A program made the translations under genes and the position numbers. A stretch of 64,000 bases of DNA. Source: Candidatus Borrarchaeum weybense (GTDB taxonomy: Archaea; Asgardarchaeota; Sifarchaeia; Borrarchaeales; Borrarchaeaceae). The DNA lies in NCBI GenBank assembly GCA_019057385.1, contig JAHQJS010000007.1:811685-875684 (forward strand), read 5' to 3'. Below, one piece after another: positions 36,630 to 59,097 of the stretch; the first letter of the stretch is position 1, and the number at the start of each line of letters is the position of its first letter. The notes under the pieces were generated by a model. It saw only the letters and a list, made by a program, of their open reading frames with translations, ran no database searches and was not told where the DNA came from.

Positions 36630-36635
36630 CCAAAA

Positions 36636-38474: not shown

Positions 38475-38497
38475 TCCAAACGCCTATAATATAATAT

Positions 38498-39559: not shown

Positions 39560-39660
39560 CTTAAACCCTCATTAAATCTTTTTGACAACTCCAACAATTC
39601 TATAGCCTTTACTAGGACCAAAGGATGCTCATGTGAATCTATAATCAATTGAAACCTTCC

Positions 39661-40611: not shown

Positions 40612-40628
40612 GTGTTTTTTACCCCCTA

Positions 40629-41285
40629 CTAGATTACGTTAAAATCCTCTATCTCAAGAAGCAATCGGTCGTCTTTCACAACTTTTTTGCTCGCTACTAT
40701 TTCTATACGCCGCTGGAAGAATGGACCATTAGTTACAAGGGTGTGATATTCACCATTTTCGCCACACAAATCGATTTCTCGACTTCTGAGGTAATCTATA
40801 AATTCCCAGTTAAGGGGATGTCCTATCCAGTCGTCATGTATAAGATCAGATTTAACGCTGATAATTTTGGCTTCAAAACCATTATTTATGAATTCCATTA
40901 GTAGATTTTCGTATTTTTGCTTCCATAACGGTTCAAAAACATCGAGTTCAGCTTCTTCACAAACCTTCTCGACCCAATCTCTGTTTTCCTGAAAATCTAT
41001 GTCTCCAAATACTCCGCTTTCGATGCCTCTATTCCTCAGTTCCTTAATTCTTCTCTTAAATTCTCGTTCATAATCTTCCCAAGAAGCCCTCCCATAAACT
41101 ATTGGAATTCCAATTGCTTTAGCTTGTGCATCAATAATTTCTTTTCTTAAACCATGACCTCTAGACCGTAAACCGTCTTCGTCAAGCATGTTAAATAGGA
41201 ATTCAACATGTAAACCGGTTTTCAGAGCTCTAAATAACGCCAAGCTACTTTCTTTACCACCGCTCCAAGAAACAAAAACTCTCAA
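40629..41285 (-). CDS. Diphthine-ammonia ligase-like ATP pyrophosphatase, copy 2
   Basis: Close paralog of 29249-29905. Confidence 0.85.
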   Translation of the reverse strand: MRVFVSWSGGKESSLALFRALKTGLHVEFLFNMLDEDGLRSRGHGLRKEIIDAQAKAIGIPIVYGRASWEDYEREFKRRIKELRNRGIESGVFGDIDFQENRDWVEKVCEEAELDVFEPLWKQKYENLLMEFINNGFEAKIISVKSDLIHDDWIGHPLNWEFIDYLRSREIDLCGENGEYHTLVTNGPFFQRRIEIVASKKVVKDDRLLLEIEDFNVI

Positions 41286-41316
41286 CGGATTTCACCTTCT
41301 TTATTATGAATTTACT

Positions 41317-42426
41317 CTATTGAATAATTTGATTAAGCGCACCTAAGAGGCGTTTATTCTCTTTTTCAGTTCTTATTCCAATTCGAATATGATTATCACC
41401 CAGGGGCTTAAATGACGAGCAATTTCTTACTAAAATGCCGAGTTCCCTTAGTTCCTGTTCAAGACGAGTTCCTGTTAAACCAGTTCCACTAACATCAACA
41501 AAAAAATAATTTGCATCTGGTAATTCCGTCTTAAGCCCTCTTATTTTTGCTAAGTTCTCCATAAGAAATCTTTTTTGTTTATAGAAGAGTTCCTTAGATT
41601 TTTCTAGATAAGATATATCCTTTAAAGCCGCAATTGCTGCTACTTGTGCTAAATAGTTTACGTTCCATTCAAGTTTGGCGCGGCTCATATATGAGATTAA
41701 TTCCTTAGATCCTATTCCATACCCGACTCTAAGTCCTGGTATAGCAAATATTTTGGTGAGCGAGTGAATTACAAAGACATTTGTATGTTGTGTAACTCTG
41801 ATGGCATAACTTACACCTTTTTCTGTGCTGTCTATGAAAACTTCATCGAGAAAAACGAGAACCTGTTTTTCATTAGCGTCTTCGACAATGCTTTGAAGTT
41901 CATCTGGCGGCATCAATTTTGAAGTAGGATTGTTTGGATTGCATAGAAAAATCGCTTTGGTTTTATCGGTTATTTTTGCAATTATATCACTTGAATTAAC
42001 AATAAAATCAGGAGATTTCAATTCTACAAATATAGGAAGTGCGCCCATGAATTCTGTCGCAACCGTATATTCGTCAAAAGTCGGAATGGGAATAATTACT
42101 TCGTCGCCCTCTTCAAAAAAAGTCTCTGCAAATAATCTTATCAGTTCATTCGAGCCATTCCCAACTATTAGATTTTCCTCATGTAGATTGTAAATCTTGG
42201 TAAGTTCCTTTTTAAATTCTGTCGAATGAGAATCTGGATAATGAGAAAGATTATGCAAATTTCGTCTTATCACTTCTATAACGGATTCTGGGGGTCCAAT
42301 AGGGTTTATACTAGCACTGAAATCTATTAATTCTATTGCTTGTACATTGGGGTTTTTCTTATAGTGCCAAAACTTGCCCCCATGAGTGCTTGCCTTCAAT
42401 TCTATTATAGATTTACGCGGTCGCAT
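41317..42426 (-). CDS. cobD: Threonine-phosphate decarboxylase CobD (HisC-like PLP enzyme)
   Basis: HGG, DFSASINP, NPNNPT, DEVF, SLTK.FAIPGLRVGY; cobamide context. Confidence 0.8.
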   Translation of the reverse strand: MRPRKSIIELKASTHGGKFWHYKKNPNVQAIELIDFSASINPIGPPESVIEVIRRNLHNLSHYPDSHSTEFKKELTKIYNLHEENLIVGNGSNELIRLFAETFFEEGDEVIIPIPTFDEYTVATEFMGALPIFVELKSPDFIVNSSDIIAKITDKTKAIFLCNPNNPTSKLMPPDELQSIVEDANEKQVLVFLDEVFIDSTEKGVSYAIRVTQHTNVFVIHSLTKIFAIPGLRVGYGIGSKELISYMSRAKLEWNVNYLAQVAAIAALKDISYLEKSKELFYKQKRFLMENLAKIRGLKTELPDANYFFVDVSGTGLTGTRLEQELRELGILVRNCSSFKPLGDNHIRIGIRTEKENKRLLGALNQIIQ

Positions 42427-42474
42427 TATTTCACCCTTAATAAATATAGATAAAAAGAAAGGGCAATAATATCA

Positions 42475-43077
42475 TCATATTGCCTCTTTCACTTTAAGTC
42501 CGATCCTATATCCAATTATACCTGCAACAAATCCAAAAATTACACCAACAATTACATTCAAAACAATAAACACGCCGTAGGGTACACCAAAGAAGAATTC
42601 TACAAATGCGACATACTCAGGATACGTAATTGTTAGCAAACCCAGCTGGAACGGATAGAACACAATTGCTCTTAAGCATGCTCCGATGCCTGCTTTTAGA
42701 GAATTATTAGGATATCCACCAGTGATATAGAAGAAAGCCTCTATTAATGCTCCAGGTAAAATATCAGATGCTAGACCGATTACTGAAAAAATATTTGGAA
42801 ATAAAACTACTTCAAGAAGCCCATGGAGAAAGAAGATAAGAAAAACTGTTCCTCCCTTTCTTATTATTGTAGCTGCGAGCAGTACAAGAGTCATCGCTAA
42901 GAGTTCATAAACTATAACGGATACTACCCAGCTAAGCGGGGCCGGTATAGCAGCGAGCCCAATAAACCAAATTTGTTGCACACCATACCAGACGCCAACA
43001 AAAATTGCAATAACAACTAAATCAAATGTAGCAAACCGTTTGAAAAACCCTTTTTCTTGCTCAGTTTCCATTGTCAC
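42475..43077 (-). CDS. ECF transporter substrate-binding (S) component, probably corrinoid/precursor specific
   Basis: Hydrophobic ~200 aa, RKGG motif, downstream of ecfA/ecfT. Confidence 0.65.
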   Translation of the reverse strand: MTMETEQEKGFFKRFATFDLVVIAIFVGVWYGVQQIWFIGLAAIPAPLSWVVSVIVYELLAMTLVLLAATIIRKGGTVFLIFFLHGLLEVVLFPNIFSVIGLASDILPGALIEAFFYITGGYPNNSLKAGIGACLRAIVFYPFQLGLLTITYPEYVAFVEFFFGVPYGVFIVLNVIVGVIFGFVAGIIGYRIGLKVKEAI

Positions 43078-43097
43078 TGTTTCACCTCCTTAGTTTT

Positions 43098-43928
43098 TCA
43101 TACTACTATTTGCATTAACTCTACGCTAATATTCTGAATAGAAAAGACTTCAATCAAGACAATAATAGATAAAGCAACCAGAAGGACTGAAAAAACCAAC
43201 ATGAGATAATCTCTACTTCCTAATTGAAGGGTCTCCATCGTAGTTGGATTTTTTGTAGCTCGAAAGCCTCGTGCATCTAGAGAATACGCTAATTGCATAC
43301 TTCTACGTATCGAATGAATAATTAAAGGCGTAAACAATCTTTTGATTGATTTAATACGCCCTATTATACCACTTGTTTCAATTCCCCGAACATTTGCAAC
43401 TGCTGTTAACTTCTTCCATTGTTCAATTGCGAGTGGAATGAAACGAATCGTAATGATTACCATGATTGTTAGCTCATAAGGACAACGTAGTTTTCTAAGT
43501 GCACTCACCATTCTACTGGGTTCTGTGGTAAGGGAAACCAATAATGCCATTGAGACTAATGATAATGTTCTGAATGAAAATGTAATTGAAGCAAGAAGAA
43601 TCTCGGTGTAGATTCCAGAACCACCTATTATCGGAATCACTGCGGGAATTACTTCTATGTACGTTAAACGTTCTTTAGGCGCAATTCTTGAAAATACTGT
43701 TGAAGAAACAAACATAAAAGCAAAAAGTAACGCTATACTTTTAAAAAAGTAACTAACGGTCTTAATAGGTAACTTTGCAAGTAACCAAGCGCAAAGAACG
43801 GCGATAAATGAAAGAAATAGAATAAGTGCATCGTGAATTGTACTTATTAGCATCAAGAAAGACATCGAAGTTATCAACTTAACTCTAGGATCCAAGCTTG
43901 ATGAACTAAAATTTATACTATTCTGCAC
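43098..43928 (-). CDS. ecfT: ECF transporter transmembrane component T
   Basis: LDPRVKL, RFIP, VRG and DARGF motifs. Confidence 0.85.
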   Translation of the reverse strand: MQNSINFSSSSLDPRVKLITSMSFLMLISTIHDALILFLSFIAVLCAWLLAKLPIKTVSYFFKSIALLFAFMFVSSTVFSRIAPKERLTYIEVIPAVIPIIGGSGIYTEILLASITFSFRTLSLVSMALLVSLTTEPSRMVSALRKLRCPYELTIMVIITIRFIPLAIEQWKKLTAVANVRGIETSGIIGRIKSIKRLFTPLIIHSIRRSMQLAYSLDARGFRATKNPTTMETLQLGSRDYLMLVFSVLLVALSIIVLIEVFSIQNISVELMQIVV

Positions 43929-43942
43929 TTATCTCGCCCTTC

Positions 43943-45454
43943 TCAGTTTTCCATTATTGGTAGTTGCACATTTTCTGTCGGAAATTGCCTAGAATTATTT
44001 TGTGCCATGTTTTGGTTAATGTGAGTTTCCATTATTTTCCCATTTTCTAATAAAAGTACTCTATTTGATATTGCACTGAGAAATTCCAAATCATGTGAGA
44101 TTGTAATTAATGTGTGTGTTTCATTCAATTCTTGAGCCAATTTGATGAAATCTTGCTTATGCTTATAGTCTTGTCCAGTTGTAGGCTCATCGAAAATCAA
44201 AATATTCGGTTGTGATACTAATAACGAAGCAATTGCAACCCTTTCTCTTTCCCCATAACTTATTTTAAAAGTACCTTTGTTATCGTAACCCTTAAGATTC
44301 AATAAATCGAGGGTTTCGTTTAAAAGCTTGTTTTTCTCATCCTCACTCAATCTTTGAATCCAAGGCGCGTATAAAATTTCATTTGAAACCTTGGTCGTCA
44401 GAATATTATCGTCTGGGTTTTGAAAGAGCACACCGATTTTCCTTATTGCTTGTTTACGTTTATAACTCCCGATCAGCTTTCCATCAATCATTATAGAGCC
44501 TTGTTTTGGCTTAAGAACGCCTGCTAAGATAAGTGCAAGAGTCGTTTTTCCAGAACCATTCTCACCCATTATTCCCAGGGATTCTCTTTCAAAGATTGAA
44601 AAAGAAATGTCAGTTAAAACGGAGTAATTATTATAGGAGAATGAAAGATTTTCTACTTGCAAGATTTTAGATCCATTAGTAATATTGGATTGTAGTGAGG
44701 GGTATATGGTCGTATTCAAAGGCTGTATTCCATAAGTGTTACAAAATTTTGTGTCTGTTAATATTTGAGGATCATCTGCAACTATTTCTCCACGATTTAG
44801 AACGATAACCCGATCGGTAATTTTACTAACTTCTTTTGTCCTATGCTCTGCAATTATAACAGTGATATTTTGATTTTCGCTGATTTGATCGATTAATGCT
44901 AGTATTTTTCTACCTGTTTTAAGGTCAATATTTGAAGTGGGCTCATCAAAAACCATTATAGCTGGACGAAAAGCAAGCATAGACGCAATACAGACTCTCT
45001 GTTGCTGTCCCATTGATAGTTCTGTCAATGGTTTTTCGGCAAATTTCTCCATTTCTACTGCTTCAAGTGCAAAATAAACCCTTTCTTGTATTTCCTCAGG
45101 AGGCAATCCTAAATTCTGTGGACCAAACGCTACTTCATCTTTAACCTTTAGAGAAAATAGTTGGGCCGATGGATTTTGGAGCACAACACCAACTTTATTT
45201 TTTAAGTGATAGGGAGGTGTTCTTTGGAGATTTTCACGTCCAACAGTTATATTGCCTTTAATTTTTCCTTCGGAATAAGAGTGCGGTATTAATCCGCTTA
45301 TACATAATACTAATGTTGACTTGCCGCATCCGCTGGGTCCAACAATTAGTAAACGCTCACCTTTATTGACTTTCAGATTGAAATCCTTCAAGGCAGGTTT
45401 CTCTGTGTTCGAATAACAATAAGAAAAATTCTCAACATGAATAAGCGGATTCAT
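43943..45454 (-). CDS. ECF transporter duplicated ATPase
   Basis: Two Walker A (GPSGCGKS, GENGSGKT), QNP, DEPT. Confidence 0.9.
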   Translation of the reverse strand: MNPLIHVENFSYCYSNTEKPALKDFNLKVNKGERLLIVGPSGCGKSTLVLCISGLIPHSYSEGKIKGNITVGRENLQRTPPYHLKNKVGVVLQNPSAQLFSLKVKDEVAFGPQNLGLPPEEIQERVYFALEAVEMEKFAEKPLTELSMGQQQRVCIASMLAFRPAIMVFDEPTSNIDLKTGRKILALIDQISENQNITVIIAEHRTKEVSKITDRVIVLNRGEIVADDPQILTDTKFCNTYGIQPLNTTIYPSLQSNITNGSKILQVENLSFSYNNYSVLTDISFSIFERESLGIMGENGSGKTTLALILAGVLKPKQGSIMIDGKLIGSYKRKQAIRKIGVLFQNPDDNILTTKVSNEILYAPWIQRLSEDEKNKLLNETLDLLNLKGYDNKGTFKISYGERERVAIASLLVSQPNILIFDEPTTGQDYKHKQDFIKLAQELNETHTLITISHDLEFLSAISNRVLLLENGKIMETHINQNMAQNNSRQFPTENVQLPIMEN

Positions 45455-45903: not shown

Positions 45904-47754
45904 TCATTTTCTAGAGATCCTATCTTTGTGAGGGATATACATAGATTTAGCATACTCTCTTGTAAAATCTGGATCAAGCACAAGTTCCAAATAACGAACT
46001 TTTCGGCCAATCTCCTCTGACATTTTCCTAGATTCTTTGGATAGAAGTGCCATCCTTGCACCGGTTCCCGCAGCGTTCCCTACCGATTTAATTATTTCTA
46101 TAGGAAAGTTAGGAATCATCCCGATAGTGATGGCTGCCTCTGGATCTACATAGCACCCAAAAGCGCCAGCAATAAAAACATGCGCAACATCATCAATTTT
46201 AATTCCTTTATTTTTTAATAAAAGTGCGGCTCCGGCATGCATTGCTGCTTTAGCTAGTTGCAATTGTTTTATATCTTCTTGAGAAATAGCGAGGTTTTCT
46301 TCAAGAACTGTTTCATCTTTCCGCAAGAGTATAAATTTAGACTCTCCTTTTTTGTCGACAATCCTTGGAGTGGGAAGAGAAACGTTTATACGCCCTCTGT
46401 GATTTATAATTCCCGCCTTAAACATTTCCGAAAGGGCGTCAATTATTGCTGAACCACAGATACCTCTAGGTTTCGCATCATCTATTGTTTTATAGGTGAC
46501 TTCAAAAGTTACAGGATCGATTTTTAAGCGTTCAATTGCCCCAGTCGATGCACGTATTCCATGCTTGATATACGCACCTTCAAAGGCGGGCCCTGATGCA
46601 CAAGAACACACAAGTATATCATCTTTATTTCCAAGAGCGATTTCTGTATTCGTACCAATATCTAAGGTCAAACATATTTCATCAGATTTGTATATTTCTG
46701 TAGCTAATATTTCAGCGACTTTATCTCCTCCCACAAAGCCCGCTATTATAGGAAGAAGGTGAACATTTCCATAAGAATATATATCAAGTTTCAACTTTTC
46801 TGTGGGAATATCCAGCGAATTTTTCACCACTGGAACATACGGTGCTATCGGTAAATAATCAGAAGGGATACGTAAGAATGTATGATGCATAGCAGTATTT
46901 CCGACCGCACAGATCTCATAAACCTCGTATAATTTCACCTCTGCTTTTTCACAAAGTGACTCTATGAGTTGATTTATTCCTTCAACGATAATATCAGACA
47001 TTAAATTTGGGTTCTTTGTTGCAAAAGTGATTCTTGAAACAACATCTTCTCCATAAGGGATTTGCGGATTCATAATAGAGTCAGCAGCCATCAAACTTCC
47101 ATTATAAAGATTGATCAAATAGGCAGCAATCTTAGTAGTTCCAATATCTAGTGCTACCCCATAATTTTTCTCGAATGTCATCCCACGCTCAATATCAATG
47201 ATCTTTTGGTTATTCCAAATTGTTACGGTCACAACCCAATCTCCATCTCTTAAAACGTGAGGAATCTTTTTGAGAATGTTAAAGTCTATTCCAATATTGT
47301 GTCCAAGAATGTTATGAACTTCATCCATAATTCGCTCTGCATCAGCTCTAAGATCCTGAAGAGCTGGTGGGGTCATCTTCAACACTACTTTCTGAACAAA
47401 CGGATCAAATTCTATAGGAACTTCAATACCTTCAATCTGAAGCCGTTGTTTTCCAGTTCTGCTGTTTATTGGTATTTCTACAGTGACATTTCCTTTTGGA
47501 ACTGTGCAACACGCCAATCTGTATCCTTTTTGAATTTCTAGTTGAGTGAGAATTCTTTTTTCATCATCGGTAATTAGGTTGACAGCATTTTTTTCTGAAT
47601 TTATTATAATCTTACATTTACCACATATTGCGGTTCCTCCACAAATAGCTTGAATATCTATGCCTCCCTTTATTGCGCCTTCCAATATGGTTTCGCCGTT
47701 GGCGATGGTAACCCTTTTTCCATCAGGTTGAAATGTTATTTCACTTTGATTCAT
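45904..47754 (-). CDS. ATP-dependent corrinoid reductive activator (RamA/RACo-like ASKHA protein with N-terminal 2Fe-2S)
   Basis: CGG.A.CGKC...RLAC, DIGTT, DIGTNTE, GPAFEG, GICGS, AGAFG, GNAAG.GA. Confidence 0.88.
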   Translation of the reverse strand: MNQSEITFQPDGKRVTIANGETILEGAIKGGIDIQAICGGTAICGKCKIIINSEKNAVNLITDDEKRILTQLEIQKGYRLACCTVPKGNVTVEIPINSRTGKQRLQIEGIEVPIEFDPFVQKVVLKMTPPALQDLRADAERIMDEVHNILGHNIGIDFNILKKIPHVLRDGDWVVTVTIWNNQKIIDIERGMTFEKNYGVALDIGTTKIAAYLINLYNGSLMAADSIMNPQIPYGEDVVSRITFATKNPNLMSDIIVEGINQLIESLCEKAEVKLYEVYEICAVGNTAMHHTFLRIPSDYLPIAPYVPVVKNSLDIPTEKLKLDIYSYGNVHLLPIIAGFVGGDKVAEILATEIYKSDEICLTLDIGTNTEIALGNKDDILVCSCASGPAFEGAYIKHGIRASTGAIERLKIDPVTFEVTYKTIDDAKPRGICGSAIIDALSEMFKAGIINHRGRINVSLPTPRIVDKKGESKFILLRKDETVLEENLAISQEDIKQLQLAKAAMHAGAALLLKNKGIKIDDVAHVFIAGAFGCYVDPEAAITIGMIPNFPIEIIKSVGNAAGTGARMALLSKESRKMSEEIGRKVRYLELVLDPDFTREYAKSMYIPHKDRISRK

Positions 47755-47780
47755 AGATATATGCTCCGATTATGTATTAT

Positions 47781-48698
47781 TTAGAATATTCTGTAAAGAG
47801 GATGGTTCTTGGTTCTAGTTTTTATACGATCTTCTCGCATTGCATATGCAATTATTGCATCAGTCATTGCGGCTGCAGGAAATATTATCTCTGCATTTTT
47901 TATTGGACCATATAGGATAAAATTGGCTCCTGCATTTTGAAGAATCGTCACACAACCTGTCATACATGTTTTCTTTGCATCCATTCCATATTCCTTTAGG
48001 CGCGTCCATTGCAGAAGTTGTCTGTATGGTGATCCTCCAGCCGGTAGGCCAAACTCTTCTTTAATTAAAGGGATTGCTTTAGCCACTAGGCCAACACCTG
48101 GTATATCGCAAGGTGACCCATCGATTAACGTATTTTTGACCCCTGATCTCTCTGCAATTGTTAAAAGACCTTCCTGACGCGAGGTCCCATTTAGTATTTC
48201 AACTCTTCCTGCTGGCTTGGGACTCGAGAGATTAAAGGAGTAGATTATAGCAGAGTCCACCCCTGCCTCTTTTATAGCCATTAATTCCTCTTCTTTTGTA
48301 AAATAAGCTATGTGATTATAAACAATTCTATCACTTAAACCTACCTCTGCAGAGTGTTGGACGGCCGAAATTTTTACATCCATCTGGGGACTATAAAGCA
48401 ATATAGGAGCATCGGTGAGATTCGCTACAAAATCAATATATTTACAAATGGCTTCAGGGCTTGTACCTACAACATCTATCATTATAGGGTTGCCGGTTTT
48501 TTCCGACAACTCAGATTGTTTTTCTATGAATTCTTCTGCTTTCTGCTTGTCGAATGCCCCTGTTTTTTCGTTTTCAACGATTTTATCGCCGTGATAGAAG
48601 ATTGTTCCAATTAATACAGTAGGGAGTTCTCCTAGCTGTCCGCCCACTTCAACGTTTCCTATACGAAATACTTTCTGTTCATTCTCAAATTTAAACAC
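47781..48698 (-). CDS. mtrH: MtrH-family methyltransferase (corrinoid:pterin), paralog 1
   Basis: MFKFE.EQ, GGQ.GELPTVL.G.IFY, FGLP.G, ILYGPI. Confidence 0.85.
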   Translation of the reverse strand: MFKFENEQKVFRIGNVEVGGQLGELPTVLIGTIFYHGDKIVENEKTGAFDKQKAEEFIEKQSELSEKTGNPIMIDVVGTSPEAICKYIDFVANLTDAPILLYSPQMDVKISAVQHSAEVGLSDRIVYNHIAYFTKEEELMAIKEAGVDSAIIYSFNLSSPKPAGRVEILNGTSRQEGLLTIAERSGVKNTLIDGSPCDIPGVGLVAKAIPLIKEEFGLPAGGSPYRQLLQWTRLKEYGMDAKKTCMTGCVTILQNAGANFILYGPIKNAEIIFPAAAMTDAIIAYAMREDRIKTRTKNHPLYRIF

Positions 48699-48807
48699 GC
48701 TGTTCTACTCCTGAAAGAAGAAATGCTTTCCATTAGGGAGTTAAAGACATATTATCTCCCAATTCATCGTTTTTAAACCTAAGGACCTTGTTGACTTTTA
48801 AAATGAT

Positions 48808-49737
48808 TTAGAAAATCTTGTAAAGTGGGTGTTCTCTAGTTCTCGTTTTAACCTTATGTTTTCGCATTGCATATGCAATTATTGCATCAGTCATTGCAGC
48901 TGCAGGAAATATTATCTCTGCATTTTTTATTGGACCATATAGAATGAAATCGGCACCTGCCCTTTGTAGGACTGTCACAGAACACGCCATACAAATTTTC
49001 TTTGCAAGTTTCCCATATTCCTTTACGCGTGTCCATTCTAGGACAGCATTGCAAGGAGCACCTCCTGCGGGTAGGCCAAATTCCTGTTTAATTAGTGTAG
49101 CCGCTTCGGCTACTAGTCCAACACTTGGCACGTCAAACGTTGCTCCATCTATCAAAGTATTTTCGACCCCTGTTTTCTCAGCAATTTTTAATAGGCTCTG
49201 ATCGTTTGATTCTTTTCCATACAGCATTTCAAGTCTACCTTTAGGCCATGCATTAGATGGATTAAAGGTTAAAAGTAACGCGGATTTAACACCTACCTCT
49301 TTTATTGCTGTTAATTCCTCCTCGTAGGTCTTGTACCAAATAGAATTATAAACAATTCTATTGAGTAAGCCAACTTCTGCAGCGTGTTTGATGCCTTCGA
49401 TTTTTACATCCATAAACGAACTATCTACTAATATAGGAGCATCTGTGAGATTCGCTACAAAATCAATATATTTACAGATAGCTTCAGGACTTGTGCCTAC
49501 AACATCTAGCATTACAGGATTACAAGTTTTTTCCGACAACTCAGATTGTTTTTCTATGAATTCTTCTGCTTTCTGCTTGTCGAATGCCCCTGTTTTTTCG
49601 TTTTCAACGATTTTATCGCCGTGATAGAAGATTGTTCCAATTAATACGGTAGGTAACTCCCCTGGCTGTCCACCCACCTCAACGTCTCCTATATGAAAAA
49701 TTTTCTGTTCATTCTCAAATTTAAACAAATTTATCAC
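48808..49737 (-). CDS. mtrH: MtrH-family methyltransferase, paralog 2
   Basis: As above with VDSS and YNSI pterin-binding residues. Confidence 0.87.
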   Translation of the reverse strand: MINLFKFENEQKIFHIGDVEVGGQPGELPTVLIGTIFYHGDKIVENEKTGAFDKQKAEEFIEKQSELSEKTCNPVMLDVVGTSPEAICKYIDFVANLTDAPILVDSSFMDVKIEGIKHAAEVGLLNRIVYNSIWYKTYEEELTAIKEVGVKSALLLTFNPSNAWPKGRLEMLYGKESNDQSLLKIAEKTGVENTLIDGATFDVPSVGLVAEAATLIKQEFGLPAGGAPCNAVLEWTRVKEYGKLAKKICMACSVTVLQRAGADFILYGPIKNAEIIFPAAAMTDAIIAYAMRKHKVKTRTREHPLYKIF

Positions 49738-50065
49738 TATCCCTTGACGTTTACATATGAGTTCACGTTAGCTTATTAAAGAAAAATATTACTCTACTCT
49801 ATTTTTATAGTTGAATACTATAGATTTATATAAGTTGTCTTTGTAGGAATTCATGATAAATTCGTTAAAAAACCTGGGATATGGAAATTTTTGAAATTAA
49901 AGTTCCGCAGTTCTAAAATGAAAAAAAGGCCATGAACACAGTATTTATAGCTGAAAGTGACAAAAAGTGAGTCTACATTACTTGAATCGTAGTATCTTAA
50001 TTACGTAAGTTTATTAATTGTATATGATCCACAAAAAGTTTATGAATCGTTAATGCAACAACTGC

Positions 50066-50428
50066 ATGATGAGAAAAAACCTTATAAGAGATCTAAAGGT
50101 GGAAGTTATGGAAATTGCCATAGAGTTTTCAGATGAAGAACTCAAATTAGTAAAAAAGTTACTAACGAGTAAAAAAGATAAGCGTCCAACAAAAGAAATT
50201 TTAGAGGAAAAATTTCGTGATTATAAAATAGGTCTGGTTTTTAGTGCACACCACAAACTAAGTGAAATTTGTCCAAAGTGCGGCTCAATTGAGACCACAC
50301 AAGATATGGATTGGAACTCGATTGACGATGGAAATGGAAAAAATATAATATTTTTAAAATGTAAAAATTGCAGTAACAAATTCAGTATTATTTGGAATCC
50401 TTTTGAAACAGATCCCCCCTCATGGTAA
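50066..50428 (+). CDS. Small hypothetical zinc-ribbon protein, paralog 1
   Basis: CPKCGS...CKNC; homologous to next ORF; start may be 50108. Confidence 0.6.
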   Translation: MMRKNLIRDLKVEVMEIAIEFSDEELKLVKKLLTSKKDKRPTKEILEEKFRDYKIGLVFSAHHKLSEICPKCGSIETTQDMDWNSIDDGNGKNIIFLKCKNCSNKFSIIWNPFETDPPSW

Positions 50429-50443
50429 GCAAAGAAACAGTAC

Positions 50444-50824
50444 TTGGTCCTAATGAATAAAAAAATAAATGGAGCACTTGTTATGAATAGTCTAAGGGAA
50501 TCATTGAAAATAAAAGTAATTTTCTCAAAAGAAGAAATCGAAATATTCAAAAACCTATTAGAAGGGAGAAAAGAAATACGCCCTCTAAAAAAGATCTTGG
50601 AAGAGAAAATAACAGAATACCAATTAGGACTAATTTATAATGCAAAAGTAATACTGAATGATGCCTGCCCAAGCTGCGGGTCACTAAACACAAAAGAGGA
50701 TCATAATCGTCCGCCGACACTCACAAAGGGTGGAAATTTTATAATATATCGCCAATGTTGCGAATGTAACACAAAATTCAGTGCACATTTTATACCATCC
50801 TTCGAAGCTGACTATAGTATTTAA
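50444..50824 (+). CDS. Small hypothetical zinc-ribbon protein, paralog 2
   Basis: CPSCGS...CCEC; shared FS.EE...LL...RP.K.ILEEK..Y..GL pattern. Confidence 0.6.
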   Translation: MVLMNKKINGALVMNSLRESLKIKVIFSKEEIEIFKNLLEGRKEIRPLKKILEEKITEYQLGLIYNAKVILNDACPSCGSLNTKEDHNRPPTLTKGGNFIIYRQCCECNTKFSAHFIPSFEADYSI

Positions 50825-51006
50825 GACCTGTCTTTCATTGTTAAACATTTCTAGAATGCGTCTTCACGCAAATCGACTTTGTGAGGTATGTAAAATAGTT
50901 TAGAAAGCAAGATCAAGAAGGAAACTCAATGATCGAGAGGAATTTTTCAATAAGATTTTCTTTAATAAGATAAATACATACTCATATCGAATAGAAGGGA
51001 GATATA

Positions 51007-51981
51007 TTGTTAAAATTTGAAAAGCCACAAGAAATATTTAGAATTGGTAATGTTGAGATCGGAGGGCAACCTGGAGAATTGCCTACCGTATTAGTTGGAA
51101 GCATATTCTATTATAAAGATAGAATTGTTGAGAACCAACATCAAGGTATTTTTAAGAAGAAAGAAGCACTACGAATAATCAATAAGGTAGATACCATATC
51201 CATGAAGACAGGAAATCCCTACGTGATAGATATAGAAGCAATTAGTAATCGTTCAATTGAAAAATTCATAGACTTTGTTTCGGAAGTAACAGAGGCACCC
51301 TTTTTTATAAATAGCACTAATATCCCAGTCAGGCTACATGGTGCCAAGTACGTAAATGAAAAAGGTCTCCAAAATAGGACAATCTACGCTTCTATAAATT
51401 TCAAGGTAGAAAAAAGTGAAATTGAAGTGCTAGAACAATCAAAAATAGATGCTGTACTAGTTCAAGCATTTAACCCTCAAAACCCGTGGTCTAAAGGAAT
51501 GATGAAGATTATGAGAGAGGGACTCAATGGAGAAGGACTTGTAGATATGGTAATAAAGGCAGGAATAAAAAAACCCCTCCTCTTTGCAAACATCTACGAT
51601 GTACCGAGCATTGGTATCGGTGGAGAAACTGTCTACATGTTAAAAAATGAGTTTGGTTTGCCGAGTGGTACAGCTCCGGTGGGTGTAGTCGGTGTATGGG
51701 GGAAAACGAAAGAGGCCAAAGAACTATATGCGCAAATAACCAGTATTTGTGGCGCAAACGCCGCAGTTTTCTCAAAACTCATGGGATCAGATTATATACA
51801 TTACGGTTCTTTGAAAAGAGCCGCAAAAATTTTTCCATCAGTTGCCATGATTGATGCTATAATAGCTTATAATGCAAAGTTATACGGAGTTGAACCAAAG
51901 ATAATAACACCTGCCTTACAAGATTTTTTTGATACTCCTGACAAAACAGTACCTCCGAAATACTTGCACGCTGAAAATTAA
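51007..51981 (+). CDS. mtrH: MtrH-family methyltransferase, divergent paralog 3
   Basis: KFEKPQ, GGQPGELPTVLVGSIFY, FGLPSG. Confidence 0.8.
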   Translation: MLKFEKPQEIFRIGNVEIGGQPGELPTVLVGSIFYYKDRIVENQHQGIFKKKEALRIINKVDTISMKTGNPYVIDIEAISNRSIEKFIDFVSEVTEAPFFINSTNIPVRLHGAKYVNEKGLQNRTIYASINFKVEKSEIEVLEQSKIDAVLVQAFNPQNPWSKGMMKIMREGLNGEGLVDMVIKAGIKKPLLFANIYDVPSIGIGGETVYMLKNEFGLPSGTAPVGVVGVWGKTKEAKELYAQITSICGANAAVFSKLMGSDYIHYGSLKRAAKIFPSVAMIDAIIAYNAKLYGVEPKIITPALQDFFDTPDKTVPPKYLHAEN

Positions 51982-55064: not shown

Positions 55065-56327
55065 CTAGAAGGGCTTTGCAATTCTTTTTATTTCTGCTGT
55101 GCTTTCCGTGGGTTGAAGCGCCTCTAAATCAATTGGAAATGTACCGTATTCTTTTACCTTTCTGATAAGGTATTTGAATCTTTGCATTGTACATGCAGGT
55201 GAAACCGTGTCCAGTTTGACAGGTACAGAGCCTCCTCCTGGTGCTGTATCTCTTATATGTCTTCTTACTCGTTCATCTAAGATCTCCAAGGCAGCATAAT
55301 TGATGGTTTCAGCATCGGTTCCGACAACCCAGAGTTTCTTGTTTTTCGCAGATATTTTTTTTGCAGCAGCTAAGTCAGCTATTCGTGTATCCATCCCATA
55401 CATGAACACAATGAATCCACTATTATCCATGTAATGTTGCCAAAAGTTTTTCCAGTCATCAACAGCTTCGTAAAATCTGAATACGCCCCAGTTGTTATAG
55501 GGTGTTCTCTTTATGACCTTCATAGCAGCTGGCATTGCGAATTCTTCCCAGTTCTTTGTACCGATCAGCGGAACGTCGCATGCGGCAGCCCACATGAAAG
55601 GAAATAGTGTTGGTGCATGGGGCTTTACAACTTCTTCGTATTGAAACTTACCATAGTCGGTCGCTAAATCCACGTATAAGTCTAAGACTTTCCACAAGAA
55701 TTCAGGATCTCTGCGTGCCCATTTAATAAGTCTTGTGAATCCCATAGTCTTAAATGCGATGTCCCAAGGGGTAGCTTGGAAGTAGAAGGGTGTAAGACGA
55801 CCGGGTAAGGTCTCAAATATTGTCTTCATTATACCAGCAAAAAATGGTCCTCTGCCCTCTGTACTTAAGTCGGGTACTCTTAATTTGTCAAAATCTGCCT
55901 TCTCTTTGATTATTTCTCCATCTGGTGCTACACAGGGGTACGACGTTGTTGGACGGAGGAGTTTGCACCCTAGTACTTCAGGCTCGATGTTGTATACATC
56001 AAAGTCAGCCTGTGGAAACTCATGTTCCAGCTTGTCTACAACCCAATATTGACTCGCCACGAGTTTTTTATAGCTATAGCAGCACTCAAGTAAAGGAATT
56101 TTTGAGTGGTGTGAGGCAAACGTTTCCATAAGCCCAGTAGGCCCAGGTATTCGCCATTTAGGTTCTTTATAGGTTGCAAGTCTTGCTATGGCTTCAGCAG
56201 GTGTCTCAGGATATTTATCAATTCTAGCCTTGATTTTTTCTGTGTGTTCTTGGATTCTCTTTTCCATTTCTGGCTCTGTCTTTTCCTCGTATACTTTCTC
56301 ACCAAATATAGTTTCTCCAAAACCCAT
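55065..56327 (-). CDS. Uroporphyrinogen decarboxylase-family methyltransferase (divergent MtaA/CmuA-like)
   Basis: YNIEPEVLGC, DPE, EEFAMP, APGGG, VKEYG; co-transcribed with corrinoid protein. Confidence 0.7.
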   Translation of the reverse strand: MGFGETIFGEKVYEEKTEPEMEKRIQEHTEKIKARIDKYPETPAEAIARLATYKEPKWRIPGPTGLMETFASHHSKIPLLECCYSYKKLVASQYWVVDKLEHEFPQADFDVYNIEPEVLGCKLLRPTTSYPCVAPDGEIIKEKADFDKLRVPDLSTEGRGPFFAGIMKTIFETLPGRLTPFYFQATPWDIAFKTMGFTRLIKWARRDPEFLWKVLDLYVDLATDYGKFQYEEVVKPHAPTLFPFMWAAACDVPLIGTKNWEEFAMPAAMKVIKRTPYNNWGVFRFYEAVDDWKNFWQHYMDNSGFIVFMYGMDTRIADLAAAKKISAKNKKLWVVGTDAETINYAALEILDERVRRHIRDTAPGGGSVPVKLDTVSPACTMQRFKYLIRKVKEYGTFPIDLEALQPTESTAEIKRIAKPF

Positions 56328-56343
56328 TTTTTATACACCTCTA

Positions 56344-56985
56344 TTAAACTGCTCCTATTAGTCTTTTACACTCGCGTACAGCATCAGCTGCATCTCTGCC
56401 GAATCCGTCCGCATTGTATTGAATTAACATATCACGATATGCGCCAGCACCACCGATTATATATTTTACTTTGTCCCTAACACCAGCCTCAGTAAGTGCC
56501 TTCTCAATTGCTGGAAGCTCTATATCAGCTGTTGATGTAGAATAGGCGGAAGCCCCAATTAACTCTGGGTTGTATTTCTTTATTGCCTCAACGAATTTTT
56601 CAGGATAGACATCTGAGCCCAAATCAATGACTTTAAATCCAGCACCTCTCAGAAATGCACCAACAAGGTTTTTTCCGATGTCATGAACATCTCCTCTAAC
56701 AACTCCAAGAACTATCGTCGCAATAAAATCTGCGTTACCACTTTTTTCCAATTCAGGAAGGACAATATTCAGGGATTTTTTCGCAGCTTCACCAACCATC
56801 ATTAGATCAGCAATGAAGTACTCTTTTTGCTCAAGTCTTTTCCCTGCAACTGTCAAGCCATTTTTCATCGCATCGATGACTTCCATTGGCTTTGCACCTT
56901 CATTAACCGCACGTTTTGTCAGCGCTTCTGCATCGTCATCTTCGCCCTCAAGAATAGCGTTTTCTAAGTCCTTTAAAGTAGACAT
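56344..56985 (-). CDS. Methyltransferase cognate corrinoid protein (MtaC/MttC-like)
   Basis: Cap domain (EYFIADL) + GDVHDIGKNLV B12 motif, GASA, IIGGA. Confidence 0.9.
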   Translation of the reverse strand: MSTLKDLENAILEGEDDDAEALTKRAVNEGAKPMEVIDAMKNGLTVAGKRLEQKEYFIADLMMVGEAAKKSLNIVLPELEKSGNADFIATIVLGVVRGDVHDIGKNLVGAFLRGAGFKVIDLGSDVYPEKFVEAIKKYNPELIGASAYSTSTADIELPAIEKALTEAGVRDKVKYIIGGAGAYRDMLIQYNADGFGRDAADAVRECKRLIGAV

Positions 56986-57632
56986 TTTTTCTATCTCTCC
57001 TAGTTTTGATCCATTTTACATATTTTTTGGATGAACCTCTATTTTCAAGAAGTCCATTTAAGTTATAGCGAATTATTATTATAGTTTTACTATAAAAAGT
57101 TTATTACTTAATAATAATTTTTTTGTATTTATGATATAATTTATTATAATTATGAATATGCTTTTTTCAAATAACAATTTAATACATCCAATCCTGGTGT
57201 TTCCTTTTTACGAAAAAATCGTACTATGAAGTCGGTATTCTACATCGGATCGATATTCATTCGGGCGAGCCCTTCAGGGTATTTTAATAAAGAATAATTT
57301 TCTTACAATTAGTTTATAAGCTCCGCGTAGTGTAAAAATATAAGAATGCCAATATTAACGGAAAGAAGTCACAGGTTACATTCTGCATGTGAAACTGGCA
57401 TAACAAGAAGGATCCTTTGTCAGTTGCATATTTTATTTGAGCTCCTGCAAATCAACCAATTTCACTCTTTAAAGGATTAATGGAATCGTGAATTCAAACA
57501 TTTTAAAAATGTACTTACCTTAATACTTATAAATATGGATTAGATTTTTATTATAATTAGTTTGTATTTCCCTAATATAATATTTGAAAACGAGATTATG
57601 TAGCGGAAACTATTATTCGCATTATCTATAGA

Positions 57633-58778
57633 GTGATTGCAATGGACGTATCGATACTCAAAATTAAGGAAGACCTTTTAGAAAAGGTAAAACTAGCAGT
57701 AATTGATGGCAACGATATTATAATCGGTAAATATATATTAAACGTATTGAATTCGAACATTCCAAATCCATTTGACTCTATTATGACCGTTCTTATTGAA
57801 GGCATTAAAAGAGTTGCAGATATGTACGAAACAGGAGAATGTGAGCTGCCAGATTTGATACTAGCGGGGGAATCACTCAAAGAAGCACTTAGTATTATAA
57901 CAAATAACGTGCGCGACCCCTCTAGTTTTTTACAAATAAAAAAAGGAAAAGTTATCCTAGGAACTGTAGAAGGTGACACTCATGATATCGGCAAAAATGT
58001 CGTTGCAGCCATGCTTCAAGCTAATGGTTTTGAAGTTATAGATCTCGGACAGAACGTACCACCTCAGATATTCGTCGAAAAGGCAGTAGAAGAAAAGGCG
58101 AATATTATAGGGGCCTCTTCATTTATGTCAAGCACTAGAAATTCTCAAAAAAAGATTTTAGAAGAATTAGAAAAGGTGGGACTTAGAGATAAAATTATTT
58201 TTCTCATCGGTGGGGCTGCGGTCTCAAAAGATTATGCCAAAACGATTGGTGCAGATGGATATGCGAAAGACGCTTTTGAGACAGTTGAACTGCTTGAGGG
58301 CTTGGTTAATAACCAAAAGAAAATTACACCAGAAAAAAATCACAAATTATTACTTAAAATGGAAGAAAACAGAAAAATGATTGAACAATTAGCTGATCAA
58401 GTCAAACAGTTTCAAGATATTATTGGGAAGACAACTAGTAGAGAAGTGAATGTTGATAAAAGTCGCCTTTTAATTTCGCAGAAGTTCATAAATGTCAAAA
58501 ATATAACGTTTTCAGAAGAAAAGGTTTACAAAATATTATCAAGTTTGTCCAACAAAGTTCGCTTAAGGGTTCTTATGGCTCTATGGCAAAAACCTTTACA
58601 TTTTTCCGAAATCGAAGAAGTCATATCAGTTAAAGGCGGTCATCTTCAATTTCACGTGGGAAAATTAAAAAACGAAGGATTAATTGAACAAAAGAAGAAC
58701 CGAGGAAAATACTCAGTTACTCAAAAAGGCAAAAAAGTAATAATGATAACAAGTCAATTATCATCGCTTGAGAATTAA
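57633..58778 (+). CDS. Corrinoid-binding protein fused to C-terminal ArsR-type winged HTH (putative regulator)
   Basis: GDTHDIGKNVV, IGGAAV, GADGYA then LSNKVRLRVL...FSEI...GGHLQFHVGKL..GLI...Y.VT.KG. Confidence 0.82.
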   Translation: MIAMDVSILKIKEDLLEKVKLAVIDGNDIIIGKYILNVLNSNIPNPFDSIMTVLIEGIKRVADMYETGECELPDLILAGESLKEALSIITNNVRDPSSFLQIKKGKVILGTVEGDTHDIGKNVVAAMLQANGFEVIDLGQNVPPQIFVEKAVEEKANIIGASSFMSSTRNSQKKILEELEKVGLRDKIIFLIGGAAVSKDYAKTIGADGYAKDAFETVELLEGLVNNQKKITPEKNHKLLLKMEENRKMIEQLADQVKQFQDIIGKTTSREVNVDKSRLLISQKFINVKNITFSEEKVYKILSSLSNKVRLRVLMALWQKPLHFSEIEEVISVKGGHLQFHVGKLKNEGLIEQKKNRGKYSVTQKGKKVIMITSQLSSLEN

Positions 58779-58809
58779 CACACACTTAGAATATTCTTGG
58801 CAAGAGTAA

Positions 58810-59097
58810 GTGACATCCTCCCCAGCCGTTCGGCTGGGGCTTACAGCTTTCCATCGTGGTCTCGTTCCCTCACGGGAAGCGATGTTTCGCCTACTTCTAT
58901 GGGCTTACGGAAACTTACCAGGTTGCACACGCTGCTCAATCACTATCCTGCCCCTTATTCAGGGGAATTTCTTGCGATGCTGGATAGCGACCTCATGCAC
59001 GGGCTTCCTCACGCTTACCCCTGTCACTACGCTGACTGGTCGCTTATGGGAGGATATGCCTCCACCCCAGTCGGAAGGGGACTTCCCACCGCATAAG
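58810..59097 (-). mobile_element. ~290 bp ORF-less IS200/IS605 derivative made of structured RNA (stand-alone omega-RNA-like)
   Basis: GC-rich island; right end AAGCCCCAGCCGAACGGCTGGGGAGGATGTCAC; multiple stems with GNRA loops on minus strand. Confidence 0.7.

What the first reader, a model, noticed from the sequence alone, without database searches (positions are those of the whole stretch)
57633..58778. Methyltransferase-type corrinoid protein fused to a winged-HTH: a one-component methyl/B12 sensor
Seen: a complete MtaC-like cap + Rossmann domain with intact DxHxxG, a helical linker (KMEENRKMIEQLADQVKQFQ), then an ArsR-like wHTH. The gene is divergent from the corrinoid protein + methyltransferase operon. 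Established: the known B12-binding regulator CarH has an N-terminal MerR HTH and senses light through AdoCbl, a different architecture. Inference: the neighbouring methyltransferase could methylate this protein's cobalt, turning substrate availability into a transcriptional signal.
Basis: partly seen in the sequence, partly recalled or inferred. Interest (0 to 1): 0.75.

Follow-up and report, generated by a model that had tools for sequence, protein, structure and literature searches.

The report
Corrinoid carrier fused to ArsR-type regulator
A Lokiarchaeon (Asgard archaeon) from sediment encodes a real, selected fusion of a vitamin-B12 methyl-carrier protein to a DNA-binding domain; it is most likely an undescribed, non-light B12-based gene switch for its methyl-transfer and cobamide gene island, but so far it is seen in one genus only and nothing has been measured.

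Summary
The gene (true start ATG 57642, end 58778, 378 aa) has four parts. [quoted passage not shown]

The fusion is not an artefact. A contig from an independent study spans the domain junction. About ten full-length orthologues (69-71% identity) exist. Cap, Rossmann and wHTH are all under purifying selection (dN/dS 0.04-0.24).

It is rare. It forms one 50%-identity cluster among 1.84 billion representatives. Among 301 genomes of the phylum it occurs only in this genus.

The sensor half is of the methyl-carrier type (MttC, MtmC, MtaC, 1Y80), not the CarH type; the GxxW and EH light-signature elements checked are absent. The cap residue equivalent to MetH F714 is F/Y in 40 of 40 nearest carriers but Glu in every fusion.

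The divergent pairing with the corrinoid and URO-D operon is specific to this genome, where the locus is rearranged. Only linkage to the methyl-transfer/cobamide island is conserved. No operator was found.

Methylation-state sensing remains plausible but unproven. Cobamide-availability sensing is a serious rival.

Earlier notes from this scan report analogous, equally unstudied regulator-corrinoid fusions in bacteria.

The parts
57642..58778 (+). Fused corrinoid-protein/wHTH gene, 378 aa from ATG 57642. The mechanical ORF starts at GTG 57633 (P0001, 381 aa; residue numbers in this report follow P0001).
   Evidence: (database version P0006 is 378 aa)
57631..57637 (+). Shine-Dalgarno-like GAGTGAT, 4 nt before the ATG. 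The orthologues have AAGTGAT at the same place.
57675..57899 (+). B12-binding_2 four-helix cap (residues 15-89). It includes the ELPD cap helix.
   Evidence: model pLDDT 80-90; dN/dS 0.04-0.19
57843..57845 (+). Codon of Glu71, the position equivalent to E. coli MetH Phe714 in the cap over the upper cobalt ligand. It is Glu in all 10 full-length fusion sequences compared, Ile in the unfused twin P0017, and Phe/Tyr in 40 of 40 nearest stand-alone corrinoid proteins.
57945..58286 (+). B12-binding Rossmann domain (residues 105-218). DxHxxG lies at 57975-57992. An SxL-like segment (residues 162-168) and GG (193-194) are conserved.
58308..58526 (+). Helical linker (residues 226-298). It is predicted as a long helix 233-269 with low confidence. 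It is the least constrained part (dN/dS 0.29-0.78). It is homologous to the linker that precedes the wHTH in archaeal regulators of about 250 aa.
58536..58742 (+). ArsR/SmtB-like winged helix-turn-helix (DUF7347, residues 302-370). The recognition helix carries the KGGHLQFH motif. The only Cys in the protein is C70 in the cap, so a Cys-based (alpha3N-type) metal site is excluded; an alpha5 His/Asp/Glu site was not checked.
56986..57641 (.). 656-bp AT-rich spacer shared with the divergent corrinoid operon. 56986-57149 is conserved with the corrinoid-operon leader of L008. 57150-57631 has no counterpart in relatives.
56344..56985 (-). Ordinary stand-alone corrinoid protein (213 aa, P0002). It is 32-33% identical to the sensor half.
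55065..56327 (-). URO-D-family methyltransferase (420 aa, P0003), co-operonic with P0002. It is a candidate substrate:corrinoid MT1 of the Mto/Mtv type.
45904..51981 (.). Rest of the methyl-transfer set. RACo-type reductive activase (45904-47754, -). Three MtrH-family methyltransferases (47781-48698 -, 48808-49737 -, 51007-51981 +). Two small paralogous ORFs (50066-50824, +).
35820..45454 (.). Cobamide salvage and uptake genes of the same island: CobS, a CobY-like nucleotidyltransferase, CobT, a class I/II aminotransferase, and an ECF CbiQ with an ABC ATPase.

Best explanation
This is a one-component transcription regulator in which a methyl-carrier-type corrinoid protein has replaced the usual N-terminal sensor of an archaeal linker + DUF7347/ArsR wHTH regulator.

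The protein binds a cobamide base-off/His-on through H117. The state of that cobamide is methyl-Co(III) or demethylated Co(I)/Co(II). The island's own enzymes set this state: a URO-D-type MT1 loads methyl from a substrate, MtrH-type MT2 removes it to H4MPT, and RACo re-reduces. The state changes how the cap sits on the corrin. The unusual Glu71 faces the upper ligand in that cap. The change is passed through the helical linker to the wHTH pair, altering DNA binding at promoters of the methyl-transfer/cobamide island.

Shown: the architecture, intact cofactor motifs, methyl-carrier ancestry, selection on all modules, and island linkage.

Inferred: cobamide binding, DNA binding, which cobalt state is read, and the targets.

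The generic claim 'cobamide-dependent, non-photoreceptor transcription factor' I put at about 0.7. The specific methylation-state mechanism I put at 0.35.
For: 1. Domain calls and DxHxxG are present.
2. The sensor half scores 1e-50 to 1e-45 against the MtgC, pyl_corrinoid and MtbC models, but only 3e-7 against CarH.
3. The best solved relatives by sequence and fold are 1Y80, MttC 7XCN, 4JGI, MtmC 3EZX and MtaC 2I2X. CarH ranks from 39 downward at about 20% identity.
4. Pairwise dN/dS among four orthologues: cap 0.04-0.19, Rossmann 0.10-0.23, wHTH 0.11-0.24, linker 0.29-0.78.
5. The C-half including the linker is homologous (E about 1e-15) to a large archaeal family of roughly 250-aa ArsR-type regulators with a different N-terminal domain. 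The same wHTH also follows receiver domains and accompanies ATP-cone domains. So it behaves as an output module behind interchangeable sensors.
6. The gene has its own 430-650-bp upstream region and a Shine-Dalgarno-like motif. Carriers, by contrast, are co-operonic with their MT1.
7. In every locus it lies within a few kb of MT1, corrinoid protein, MtrH, RACo, Met_synt_B12-like and H4MPT genes.
8. The cap substitution F714-equivalent to Glu is fixed in the fusion clade.
9. The fusion is confirmed in an independent assembly.
Against: - No operator was found. The one inverted repeat conserved in relatives (TAATATT-N2-AATATTA before the TATA-like box) is absent from this window and from other island promoters.
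- Adjacency to the MT1 operon is not conserved.
- The adjacent carrier is only 32-33% identical, so nothing ties this MT1 to this sensor.
- A polar residue at the F714 position also occurs in Thermus MetH, where it is Gln. The substitution therefore does not by itself show a non-catalytic role.
- The wHTH and linker are modelled with low confidence.
- An unfused twin (P0017, 69% identical) exists, so the same corrinoid module can work without a DNA-binding domain.
- The cobamide-availability reading fits the context equally well.
Confidence: 0.35

Rival explanations
1. Cobamide-availability sensor. The protein reads apo versus holo (and perhaps which cobamide is bound), not methylation. It controls cobamide uptake and salvage and/or the expression of cobamide-dependent methyltransferases. 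This is the job that B12 riboswitches do in bacteria.
For: The same island carries CobS, a CobY-like enzyme, CobT, an aminotransferase and an ECF CbiQ/ABC transporter. No cobalamin riboswitch was found in the window or in the whole 4.18-Mb genome, while the search's controls were detected. The unfused twin P0017 sits directly upstream of the orthologous ECF transporter operon in another lineage. The genome has at least eight other corrinoid proteins to supply with cofactor.
Against: A simple holo/apo sensor would not obviously need the very strongly conserved cap (dN/dS 0.04-0.19). In this genome and in L001, L005 and L008 the gene is not next to the transporter. No shared operator was found at the salvage genes.
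Confidence: 0.25
2. Redox or inactivation sensor. It reports oxidised Co(II) cobamide, meaning oxidative damage to the corrinoid pool, and induces the repair set: RACo, Met_synt_B12-like activation-domain proteins and a thioredoxin-reductase-like protein.
For: The conserved neighbours downstream of the gene are repair-type modules: two Met_synt_B12-like genes, a TrxR-like gene and RACo, plus DUF1638 in relatives. A Cys is nearly invariant at position 70, beside the upper-ligand pocket.
Against: Cys70 is Tyr in one orthologue. DUF1638 is absent from the whole of this genome. There is no direct evidence.
Confidence: 0.1
3. It is still a working methyl carrier. The wHTH serves dimerisation or protein docking, or DNA binding is incidental, and transcription is not regulated by cobalt state.
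For: All carrier motifs are intact, and the closest relatives are carriers, including the 69%-identical unfused P0017.
Against: The wHTH is under purifying selection and keeps the ArsR recognition-helix pattern. The homologous module is the DNA-binding output of a large regulator family. The gene is monocistronic, away from any MT1, in most lineages. The cap aromatic that is fixed in carriers has been lost.
Confidence: 0.1
4. CarH-like photoreceptor using adenosylcobamide.
For: B12-binding domains fused to HTH domains are known light sensors (PMC11796333). There is a weak CarH model hit at 3e-7.
Against: Two of the four elements of the published light signature (GxxW, EH, GxxH, GxxxP) were checked. 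The N-half has no Trp at all. It has no Glu-His dipeptide in three of the four orthologues checked; L008 has one EH whose position was not checked. There is no MerR domain. The best DNA holders are sediment and marine-sediment metagenomes.
Confidence: 0.02

Closest known systems
Methyltransferase-cognate corrinoid proteins (MttC 7XCN, MtmC 3EZX, MtaC 2I2X, Moorella 1Y80, D. hafniense O-demethylase CP 4JGI; TIGR02370)
   Same: The N-terminal 225 residues share their features. There is a four-helix cap and a Rossmann domain. The DxHxxG, SxL-like and GG motifs are present. Identity is 34-46%, with E-values of 1e-36 to 1e-24. The genomic setting includes MT1, MtrH-type MT2 and a RACo activase, like the Mto/Mtv systems (PMC8630106).
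   Different: It carries a 155-residue linker + wHTH extension. It scores below the curated cutoff (163.7 against 215.3 bits). It is not co-operonic with an MT1. The cap position equivalent to MetH F714 is Glu rather than Phe/Tyr.
CarH/LitR B12-dependent photoreceptor repressors (T. thermophilus CarH 5C8D)
   Same: A B12-binding cap + Rossmann module is joined in one chain to a DNA-binding domain, and cofactor state is expected to gate DNA binding.
   Different: The domain order is reversed, with the DNA-binding domain at the C-terminus. The output domain is ArsR-type wHTH, not MerR. The GxxW and EH elements of the light signature are absent. The sensor descends from methyl carriers (about 20% identity to CarH). 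The likely signal is chemical, not light.
Archaeal ArsR-family regulators of about 250 aa with a C-terminal DUF7347/HTH_5 wHTH (for example P0126, P0128), and ArsR/SmtB structures HlyU 3JTH and BigR 3PQJ
   Same: The linker and wHTH are homologous (E about 1e-15 to the archaeal family; 7e-5 to HlyU). The layout is the same: sensor, helical linker, wHTH.
   Different: Those proteins carry a Cys-rich helical N-domain, or a receiver or ATP-cone domain, instead of a corrinoid protein. In the regulators examined and the clusters listed no B12-binding domain appears.
Uncharacterised bacterial analogues: a Chloroflexota cluster with B12-binding_2 + B12-binding + HTH_Crp_2 (353 aa, 55 members), and AraC-corrinoid fusions in gut Clostridia noted earlier in this scan
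   Same: A methyl-carrier-type corrinoid module is fused to a DNA-binding domain. The Clostridial ones are reported inside methyl-transfer operons.
   Different: The DNA-binding families differ (Crp, AraC), and for AraC the domain order differs too. These are independent fusions in bacteria, and none is characterised. I know the Chloroflexota cluster only from the Atlas listing and the AraC ones only from unchecked notes.

Membership tests
Methyltransferase-cognate corrinoid protein (TIGR02370 / MtaC-MtbC-MttC-MtgC) | B12-binding_2 helical cap followed by a B12-binding Rossmann domain | tested here: met
   PF02607 41.6 bits (cutoff 23); PF02310 92.6 bits (cutoff 32.1). Fold matches to MttC, MtmC, 4JGI and MtaC at E 1e-16 to 1e-13.
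Methyltransferase-cognate corrinoid protein (TIGR02370 / MtaC-MtbC-MttC-MtgC) | Base-off/His-on motif DxHxxG plus SxL and GG | tested here: met
   D115-x-H117-x-x-G120 is present in all orthologues. S167, T168, G193 and G194 are invariant, and S162 and S166 are conserved in at least 90% of rows.
Methyltransferase-cognate corrinoid protein (TIGR02370 / MtaC-MtbC-MttC-MtgC) | Score above NCBIfam curated cutoffs | tested here: not met
   TIGR02370 163.7 against 215.3; MtgC 171.9 against 310; MtbC 155 against 350. The ordinary neighbour P0002 is also below cutoff (161.5), so this is weak evidence.
Methyltransferase-cognate corrinoid protein (TIGR02370 / MtaC-MtbC-MttC-MtgC) | Stand-alone protein of about 210-260 aa encoded in an operon with its MT1 | tested here: not met
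   It is 378 aa with a wHTH extension. It has its own upstream region. The MT1 operon is divergent here and 7 kb away in relatives.
Methyltransferase-cognate corrinoid protein (TIGR02370 / MtaC-MtbC-MttC-MtgC) | Aromatic cap residue at the MetH F714 position (F/Y-L/I-P motif) | tested here: not met
   Glu in 10 of 10 fusions; F/Y in 40 of 40 nearest carriers. The mapping to F714 comes from the 1BMT alignment.
Methyltransferase-cognate corrinoid protein (TIGR02370 / MtaC-MtbC-MttC-MtgC) | Accepts and donates methyl groups with MT1 and MT2 | not testable with these tools
   Needs biochemistry.
CarH/LitR photoreceptor | N-terminal MerR-type HTH | tested here: not met
   No MerR hit; the only DNA-binding domain is the C-terminal wHTH.
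CarH/LitR photoreceptor | Light-response signature in the B12 module (GxxW, EH, GxxH, GxxxP; PMC11796333) | tested here: not met
   No Trp in residues 1-227 of any of the four orthologues. No Glu-His dipeptide in three of them; L008 has one, position not checked. GxxH and GxxxP were not examined.
ArsR/SmtB wHTH regulators | ArsR-type winged helix-turn-helix | tested here: inconclusive
   HTH_5 21.7 bits against cutoff 22. NCBIfam HTH_metalloreg 27.3 against 55. The profile of the C-half hits HlyU at 7e-5 and BigR at 1.2e-3. DUF7347 is met (35.4 against 27.6). Membership holds at superfamily level; the curated ArsR cutoffs are narrowly missed.
ArsR/SmtB wHTH regulators | Metal or thiol sensing site in the wHTH (alpha3N Cys motif or alpha5 His/Asp/Glu site) | tested here: inconclusive
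   The only Cys in the protein is C70 in the cap, so an alpha3N Cys site is excluded. The alpha5 site uses His, Asp and Glu; the wHTH contains His residues and this site was not checked.
ArsR/SmtB wHTH regulators | Homodimer that binds inverted-repeat operators | tested here: inconclusive
   No conserved operator was identified. Oligomeric state is not established.

The most novel reading that the evidence does not exclude
The protein is a methyl-corrinoid signalling switch. A catabolic methyltransferase methylates the cobalt of a transcription factor's own cofactor, and an MtrH enzyme removes the methyl. Flux through a C1 methyl-transfer pathway is thereby read directly as a reversible organometallic modification of a regulator. 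This would be a non-photochemical mode of B12-based gene control. Such control has not been described in any organism, and its bacterial look-alikes (AraC- and Crp-corrinoid fusions) would share it.
Probability: 0.3. Interest if true: 0.85.

Novelty: new variant of a known kind. Interest (0 to 1): 0.62.

Why it matters
The B12-binding transcription factors characterised so far, CarH/LitR and their relatives in the papers read here, are light sensors built on adenosylcobalamin. A regulator built from a methyl-carrier corrinoid protein would show that the methyl, redox or loading chemistry of cobamides can also serve as a transcriptional signal.

It would also give a candidate answer to how archaea, in which no B12 riboswitch was found here, tune cobamide-dependent C1 metabolism. 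It would offer a handle on what Asgard archaea in sediments demethylate.

The case is small, at one genus, and purely sequence-based. However, independent analogous fusions in bacteria suggest a recurring, unstudied design. A defined protein of 378 aa is directly testable in vitro.

Tried and rejected
- **Operator search.** I looked for inverted and direct repeats in 56986-57641. I aligned upstream regions from four lineages. I scanned for the one conserved inverted repeat, TAATATT-N2-AATATTA. I aligned the corrinoid-operon leaders. The repeat is conserved only in relatives, is absent from this window and does not recur at other island promoters. The GCAAG-N8-CTTGC palindrome before the ATG is perfect in only one lineage. 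No operator is claimed.
- **Conserved RNA in the spacer.** None was found by alignment or by Rfam.
- **Homodimer prediction (collected).** The result was 'no answer' (0.31 against a mark of 0.42). It is not used either way.
- **Expression.** The single RNA run laid (X19, contigs) touched only parts of the neighbouring corrinoid gene and nothing of the fused gene. This gives no conclusion on expression.
- **Wider relatives of the fusion.** The word-based search with the C-half found only the same 11 proteins. The exhaustive HMM search found no second fused cluster.
- **Bacterial analogues.** I could not retrieve the Chloroflexota B12+Crp sequences, because the Atlas gives no ids, so their context is untested.
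- **DUF1638 as an obligate partner.** Rejected. It is convergent to the gene in relatives but absent from this whole genome.
- **Assembly artefact.** Rejected.
- **Literature.** Six full-text searches found no description of a corrinoid-protein/ArsR fusion. MtaR of Eubacterium limosum is a PocR/AraC protein and is unrelated.
Full report
**What is there**

The ORF 57633-58778 (+) translates without stops to 381 aa. Pfam finds these domains:
- B12-binding_2, residues 15-89, 41.6 bits.
- B12-binding, residues 105-218, 92.6 bits.
- DUF7347, a winged helix, residues 302-370, 35.4 bits. All three are above their cutoffs.
- ArsR HTH_5 at 21.7 bits, against a cutoff of 22.

The cobalt-ligand motif is D115-T-H117-D-I-G120.

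The start is better placed at ATG 57642. GAGTGAT sits 4 nt upstream of it, and the orthologues have AAGTGAT in the same register. The GTG lies inside that ribosome-binding motif. The database copy is also 378 aa.

A thermosome gene next door and a relative named Promethearchaeota place the organism among the Asgard archaea. The best DNA holders are sediment and marine-sediment metagenomes.

**The fusion is real and selected**

- A 1020-nt contig from a different study covers 57660-58679 at 98% identity. It therefore bridges the Rossmann, linker and wHTH junctions.
- A 1796-nt contig from another sample covers 56470-58265. It confirms the divergent arrangement with the corrinoid gene.
- About ten full-length orthologues of 383-384 aa share 69-71% identity.
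- Pairwise Nei-Gojobori dN/dS among four lineages:

| Module | dN/dS |
|---|---|
| Cap | 0.04-0.19 |
| Rossmann domain | 0.10-0.23 |
| wHTH | 0.11-0.24 |
| Linker | 0.29-0.78 |

All three folded modules are therefore maintained.

**The fusion is rare**

- I ran an exhaustive HMM search with the C-terminal 154 residues over 1.84 billion cluster representatives. It found a single fused cluster plus one fragment.
- Among 301 genomes sampled across the phylum, a full-length C-half match occurs only in this genome and one other of the same genus. The three other genomes of the genus are 69-77% complete and show none.
- The own genome has at least eight further corrinoid proteins, all unfused. The best is 41-42% identical.

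**Origin of the two halves**

*The N-half is of the methyl-carrier type.*
- It scores 1e-50 to 1e-45 against the MtgC, pyl_corrinoid and MtbC models, and 3e-7 against CarH.
- Its closest solved relatives by sequence and by fold are Moorella 1Y80, MttC (7XCN), the D. hafniense corrinoid protein 4JGI, MtmC and MtaC, followed by MetH. CarH appears only from rank 39, at about 20% identity.
- The published light-sensing signature is GxxW, EH, GxxH and GxxxP (PMC11796333). I checked the first two elements. The N-half contains no Trp. It contains no Glu-His dipeptide in three of four orthologues; L008 has one, whose position I did not check.

*The C-half, including most of the linker, belongs to a regulator family.*
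- It is homologous at E about 1e-15 to a large archaeal family of roughly 250-aa ArsR-annotated regulators. Their N-terminal part is a different, Cys-rich helical domain.
- The same wHTH also follows receiver domains and accompanies ATP-cone domains in other archaea.
- At profile level it matches the ArsR/SmtB proteins HlyU and BigR.

The simplest history is that a corrinoid protein replaced the sensor domain of such a regulator.

*An unfused twin exists.* P0017 (228 aa) is 69% identical to the sensor half. It comes from another metagenomic lineage. It is a separately spaced gene after a URO-D methyltransferase and a corrinoid protein, directly upstream of the ECF transporter operon. No DNA for that contig could be fetched.

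**A clade-specific change at the cofactor pocket**

I aligned the protein to the MetH fragment 1BMT, whose chain index plus 650 gives the residue number. This maps Y65, E71, L72 and I76 onto F708, F714, L715 and V719. From memory of the MetH literature, these cap residues pack over the methyl ligand. That point was not checked here.

Position 71 varies as follows:
- Phe or Tyr in 40 of 40 of the nearest stand-alone corrinoid proteins.
- Glu in all ten fusions.
- Ile in P0017.

The preceding residue is Cys in nine of ten fusions. Thermus MetH has Gln at this position, so a polar residue there is compatible with catalysis. Even so, a fixed carboxylate over the upper axial site is the one feature that sets this clade apart from ordinary carriers. 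It is a natural candidate for state read-out.

**Context**

The window is a combined cobamide and methyl-transfer island.

| Coordinates | Strand | Gene |
|---|---|---|
| 35820 | + | CobS |
| 36636 | + | CobY-like nucleotidyltransferase |
| 38498 | - | CobT |
| 41317 | - | Aminotransferase |
| 43098-45454 | - | ECF CbiQ and ABC ATPase |
| 45904-47754 | - | RACo activase |
| 47781-49737, 51007-51981 | -, + | Three MtrH-family methyltransferases |
| 52174-53910 | - | Thermosome |
| 54502-54948 | - | CBS protein |
| 55065-56327 | - | URO-D-family methyltransferase |
| 56344-56985 | - | Corrinoid protein |
| 57642-58778 | + | Fused gene |
| 59632, 63224 | - | Two Met_synt_B12-like genes |
| 61135 | + | Methylene-H4MPT dehydrogenase |
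| 62185 | + | TrxR-like gene |

The set of MT1 (about 47 kDa, MtvB-type), corrinoid protein, MtrH-type MT2 and RACo-like activase parallels the Mto O-demethylase system of Methermicoccus (PMC8630106). That parallel is an analogy, not a substrate assignment.

No cobalamin riboswitch is found in the window or in the whole genome. The same search detects riboswitches in seven control bacteria.

- In L001/G050, L005 and L008 the order is: corrinoid, URO-D, CBS, thermosome (+), then MtrH (-), two small ORFs (+), the fused gene (+), DUF1638 (-).
- Here the order is: small ORFs, MtrH (+), the inverted thermosome-to-corrinoid block, then the fused gene.
- Similarity between this window and the relatives upstream of the fused gene begins only 10 nt before the ATG.
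- DUF1638 is absent from the entire genome.
- In its place, directly after the stop codon, lies a multi-copy repeat of about 270 nt.

What is conserved is membership of the island, not a particular divergent promoter.

**Mechanism**

I favour a cobamide-state-dependent regulator. I put the generic claim at about 0.7. Within it, I put reading of the methylation/ligation state set by the island's MT1, MtrH and RACo enzymes at 0.35.

Arguments for this:
- The methyl-carrier ancestry of the sensor.
- The very strong constraint on the cap, which must open for methyl transfer and close over the ligand.
- The Glu71 change.

The main rival, at 0.25, is sensing of cobamide loading in a riboswitch-less organism. 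The salvage and uptake genes in the island and the position of P0017 support it.

A Co(II) damage sensor (0.1) and a carrier with a non-regulatory wHTH (0.1) remain possible. A photoreceptor is unlikely (0.02).

None of these could be separated computationally. No operator was found, and the wHTH and linker are modelled at low confidence.

**Comparison and novelty**

The protein works like CarH only in the broad sense of a B12 module gating a DNA-binding domain. It fails CarH membership on domain type, domain order and the GxxW/EH signature elements.

It is derived from carrier corrinoid proteins but fails the carrier criteria of size, operon position and cap aromatic.

I found no paper describing this architecture.

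It is not unique in concept:
- The ESM Atlas lists a Chloroflexota cluster with B12-binding_2 + B12-binding + HTH_Crp_2.
- Earlier unchecked notes of this scan report AraC-corrinoid fusions in Clostridial methyl-transfer operons.
- They also report corrinoid/URO-D/DUF1638 cassettes feeding kinases, and an ArsR-DUF4430 candidate B12 sensor in a methanogen.

I therefore class it as a new variant of a known kind (B12-domain transcription factors). It would belong to what may be a wider, uncharacterised class of methyl-carrier-based sensors.

Noticed in passing
window 58790-59105: A hairpin-rich, GC-richer segment of about 270-316 nt directly after the fused gene's stop codon is a multi-copy repeat. 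It gives 24 BLAST pieces in the own genome: about 8 copies at 82-88% identity, split into two halves with roughly 70 nt between them. Same-genus genomes carry copies at 92-95% identity. There is no Rfam match. The minus strand folds with z = -2.4. It occupies the place where relatives have DUF1638. It looks like a MITE-like element or a repeated ncRNA family.
   Followed up: partly
window 61106-63992 vs L001 10521-13407: The DNA of the MTD, TrxR-like and Met_synt_B12-like genes is 93% identical to another species' contig. All flanking orthologous genes are only 71-78% identical. This suggests a recent exchange between species or a chimeric bin; the genome's estimated contamination is 7%.
   Followed up: no
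window 50066-57641 vs L001/L005/L008: The locus has undergone at least two rearrangements relative to three related lineages. The corrinoid-to-MtrH block is inverted, and the two small paralogous ORFs have been relocated. The breakpoint lies about 10 nt upstream of the fused gene's ATG.
   Followed up: yes
window 33743-33768, 45567-45587, 60676-60698 and 56986-57000: The + strand motif AGGAGAGATAGA recurs at three intergenic loci. It equals the ribosome-binding region of the corrinoid-protein mRNA on the minus strand at 56986. RNAs transcribed from the minus strand at these loci would therefore pair with that site. The 60.7-kb copy is conserved upstream of a URO-D gene in L008. This is the subject of another finding.
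   Followed up: partly
window 50066-50428 and 50444-50824: Two tandem paralogous small ORFs of 120 and 126 aa are conserved at 59-74% identity in relatives, where they lie directly upstream of the fused gene. They have only weak zinc-ribbon or DUF6664 hints and no known function.
   Followed up: partly
metagenome contig carrying P0017 (no DNA available): An unfused 228-aa twin of the sensor half (69% identity, Ile at the F714 position) lies after a URO-D gene and a corrinoid gene and directly before the ECF transporter operon. In this window the equivalent interval (45455-45903) is empty apart from the sRNA-like motif.
   Followed up: partly
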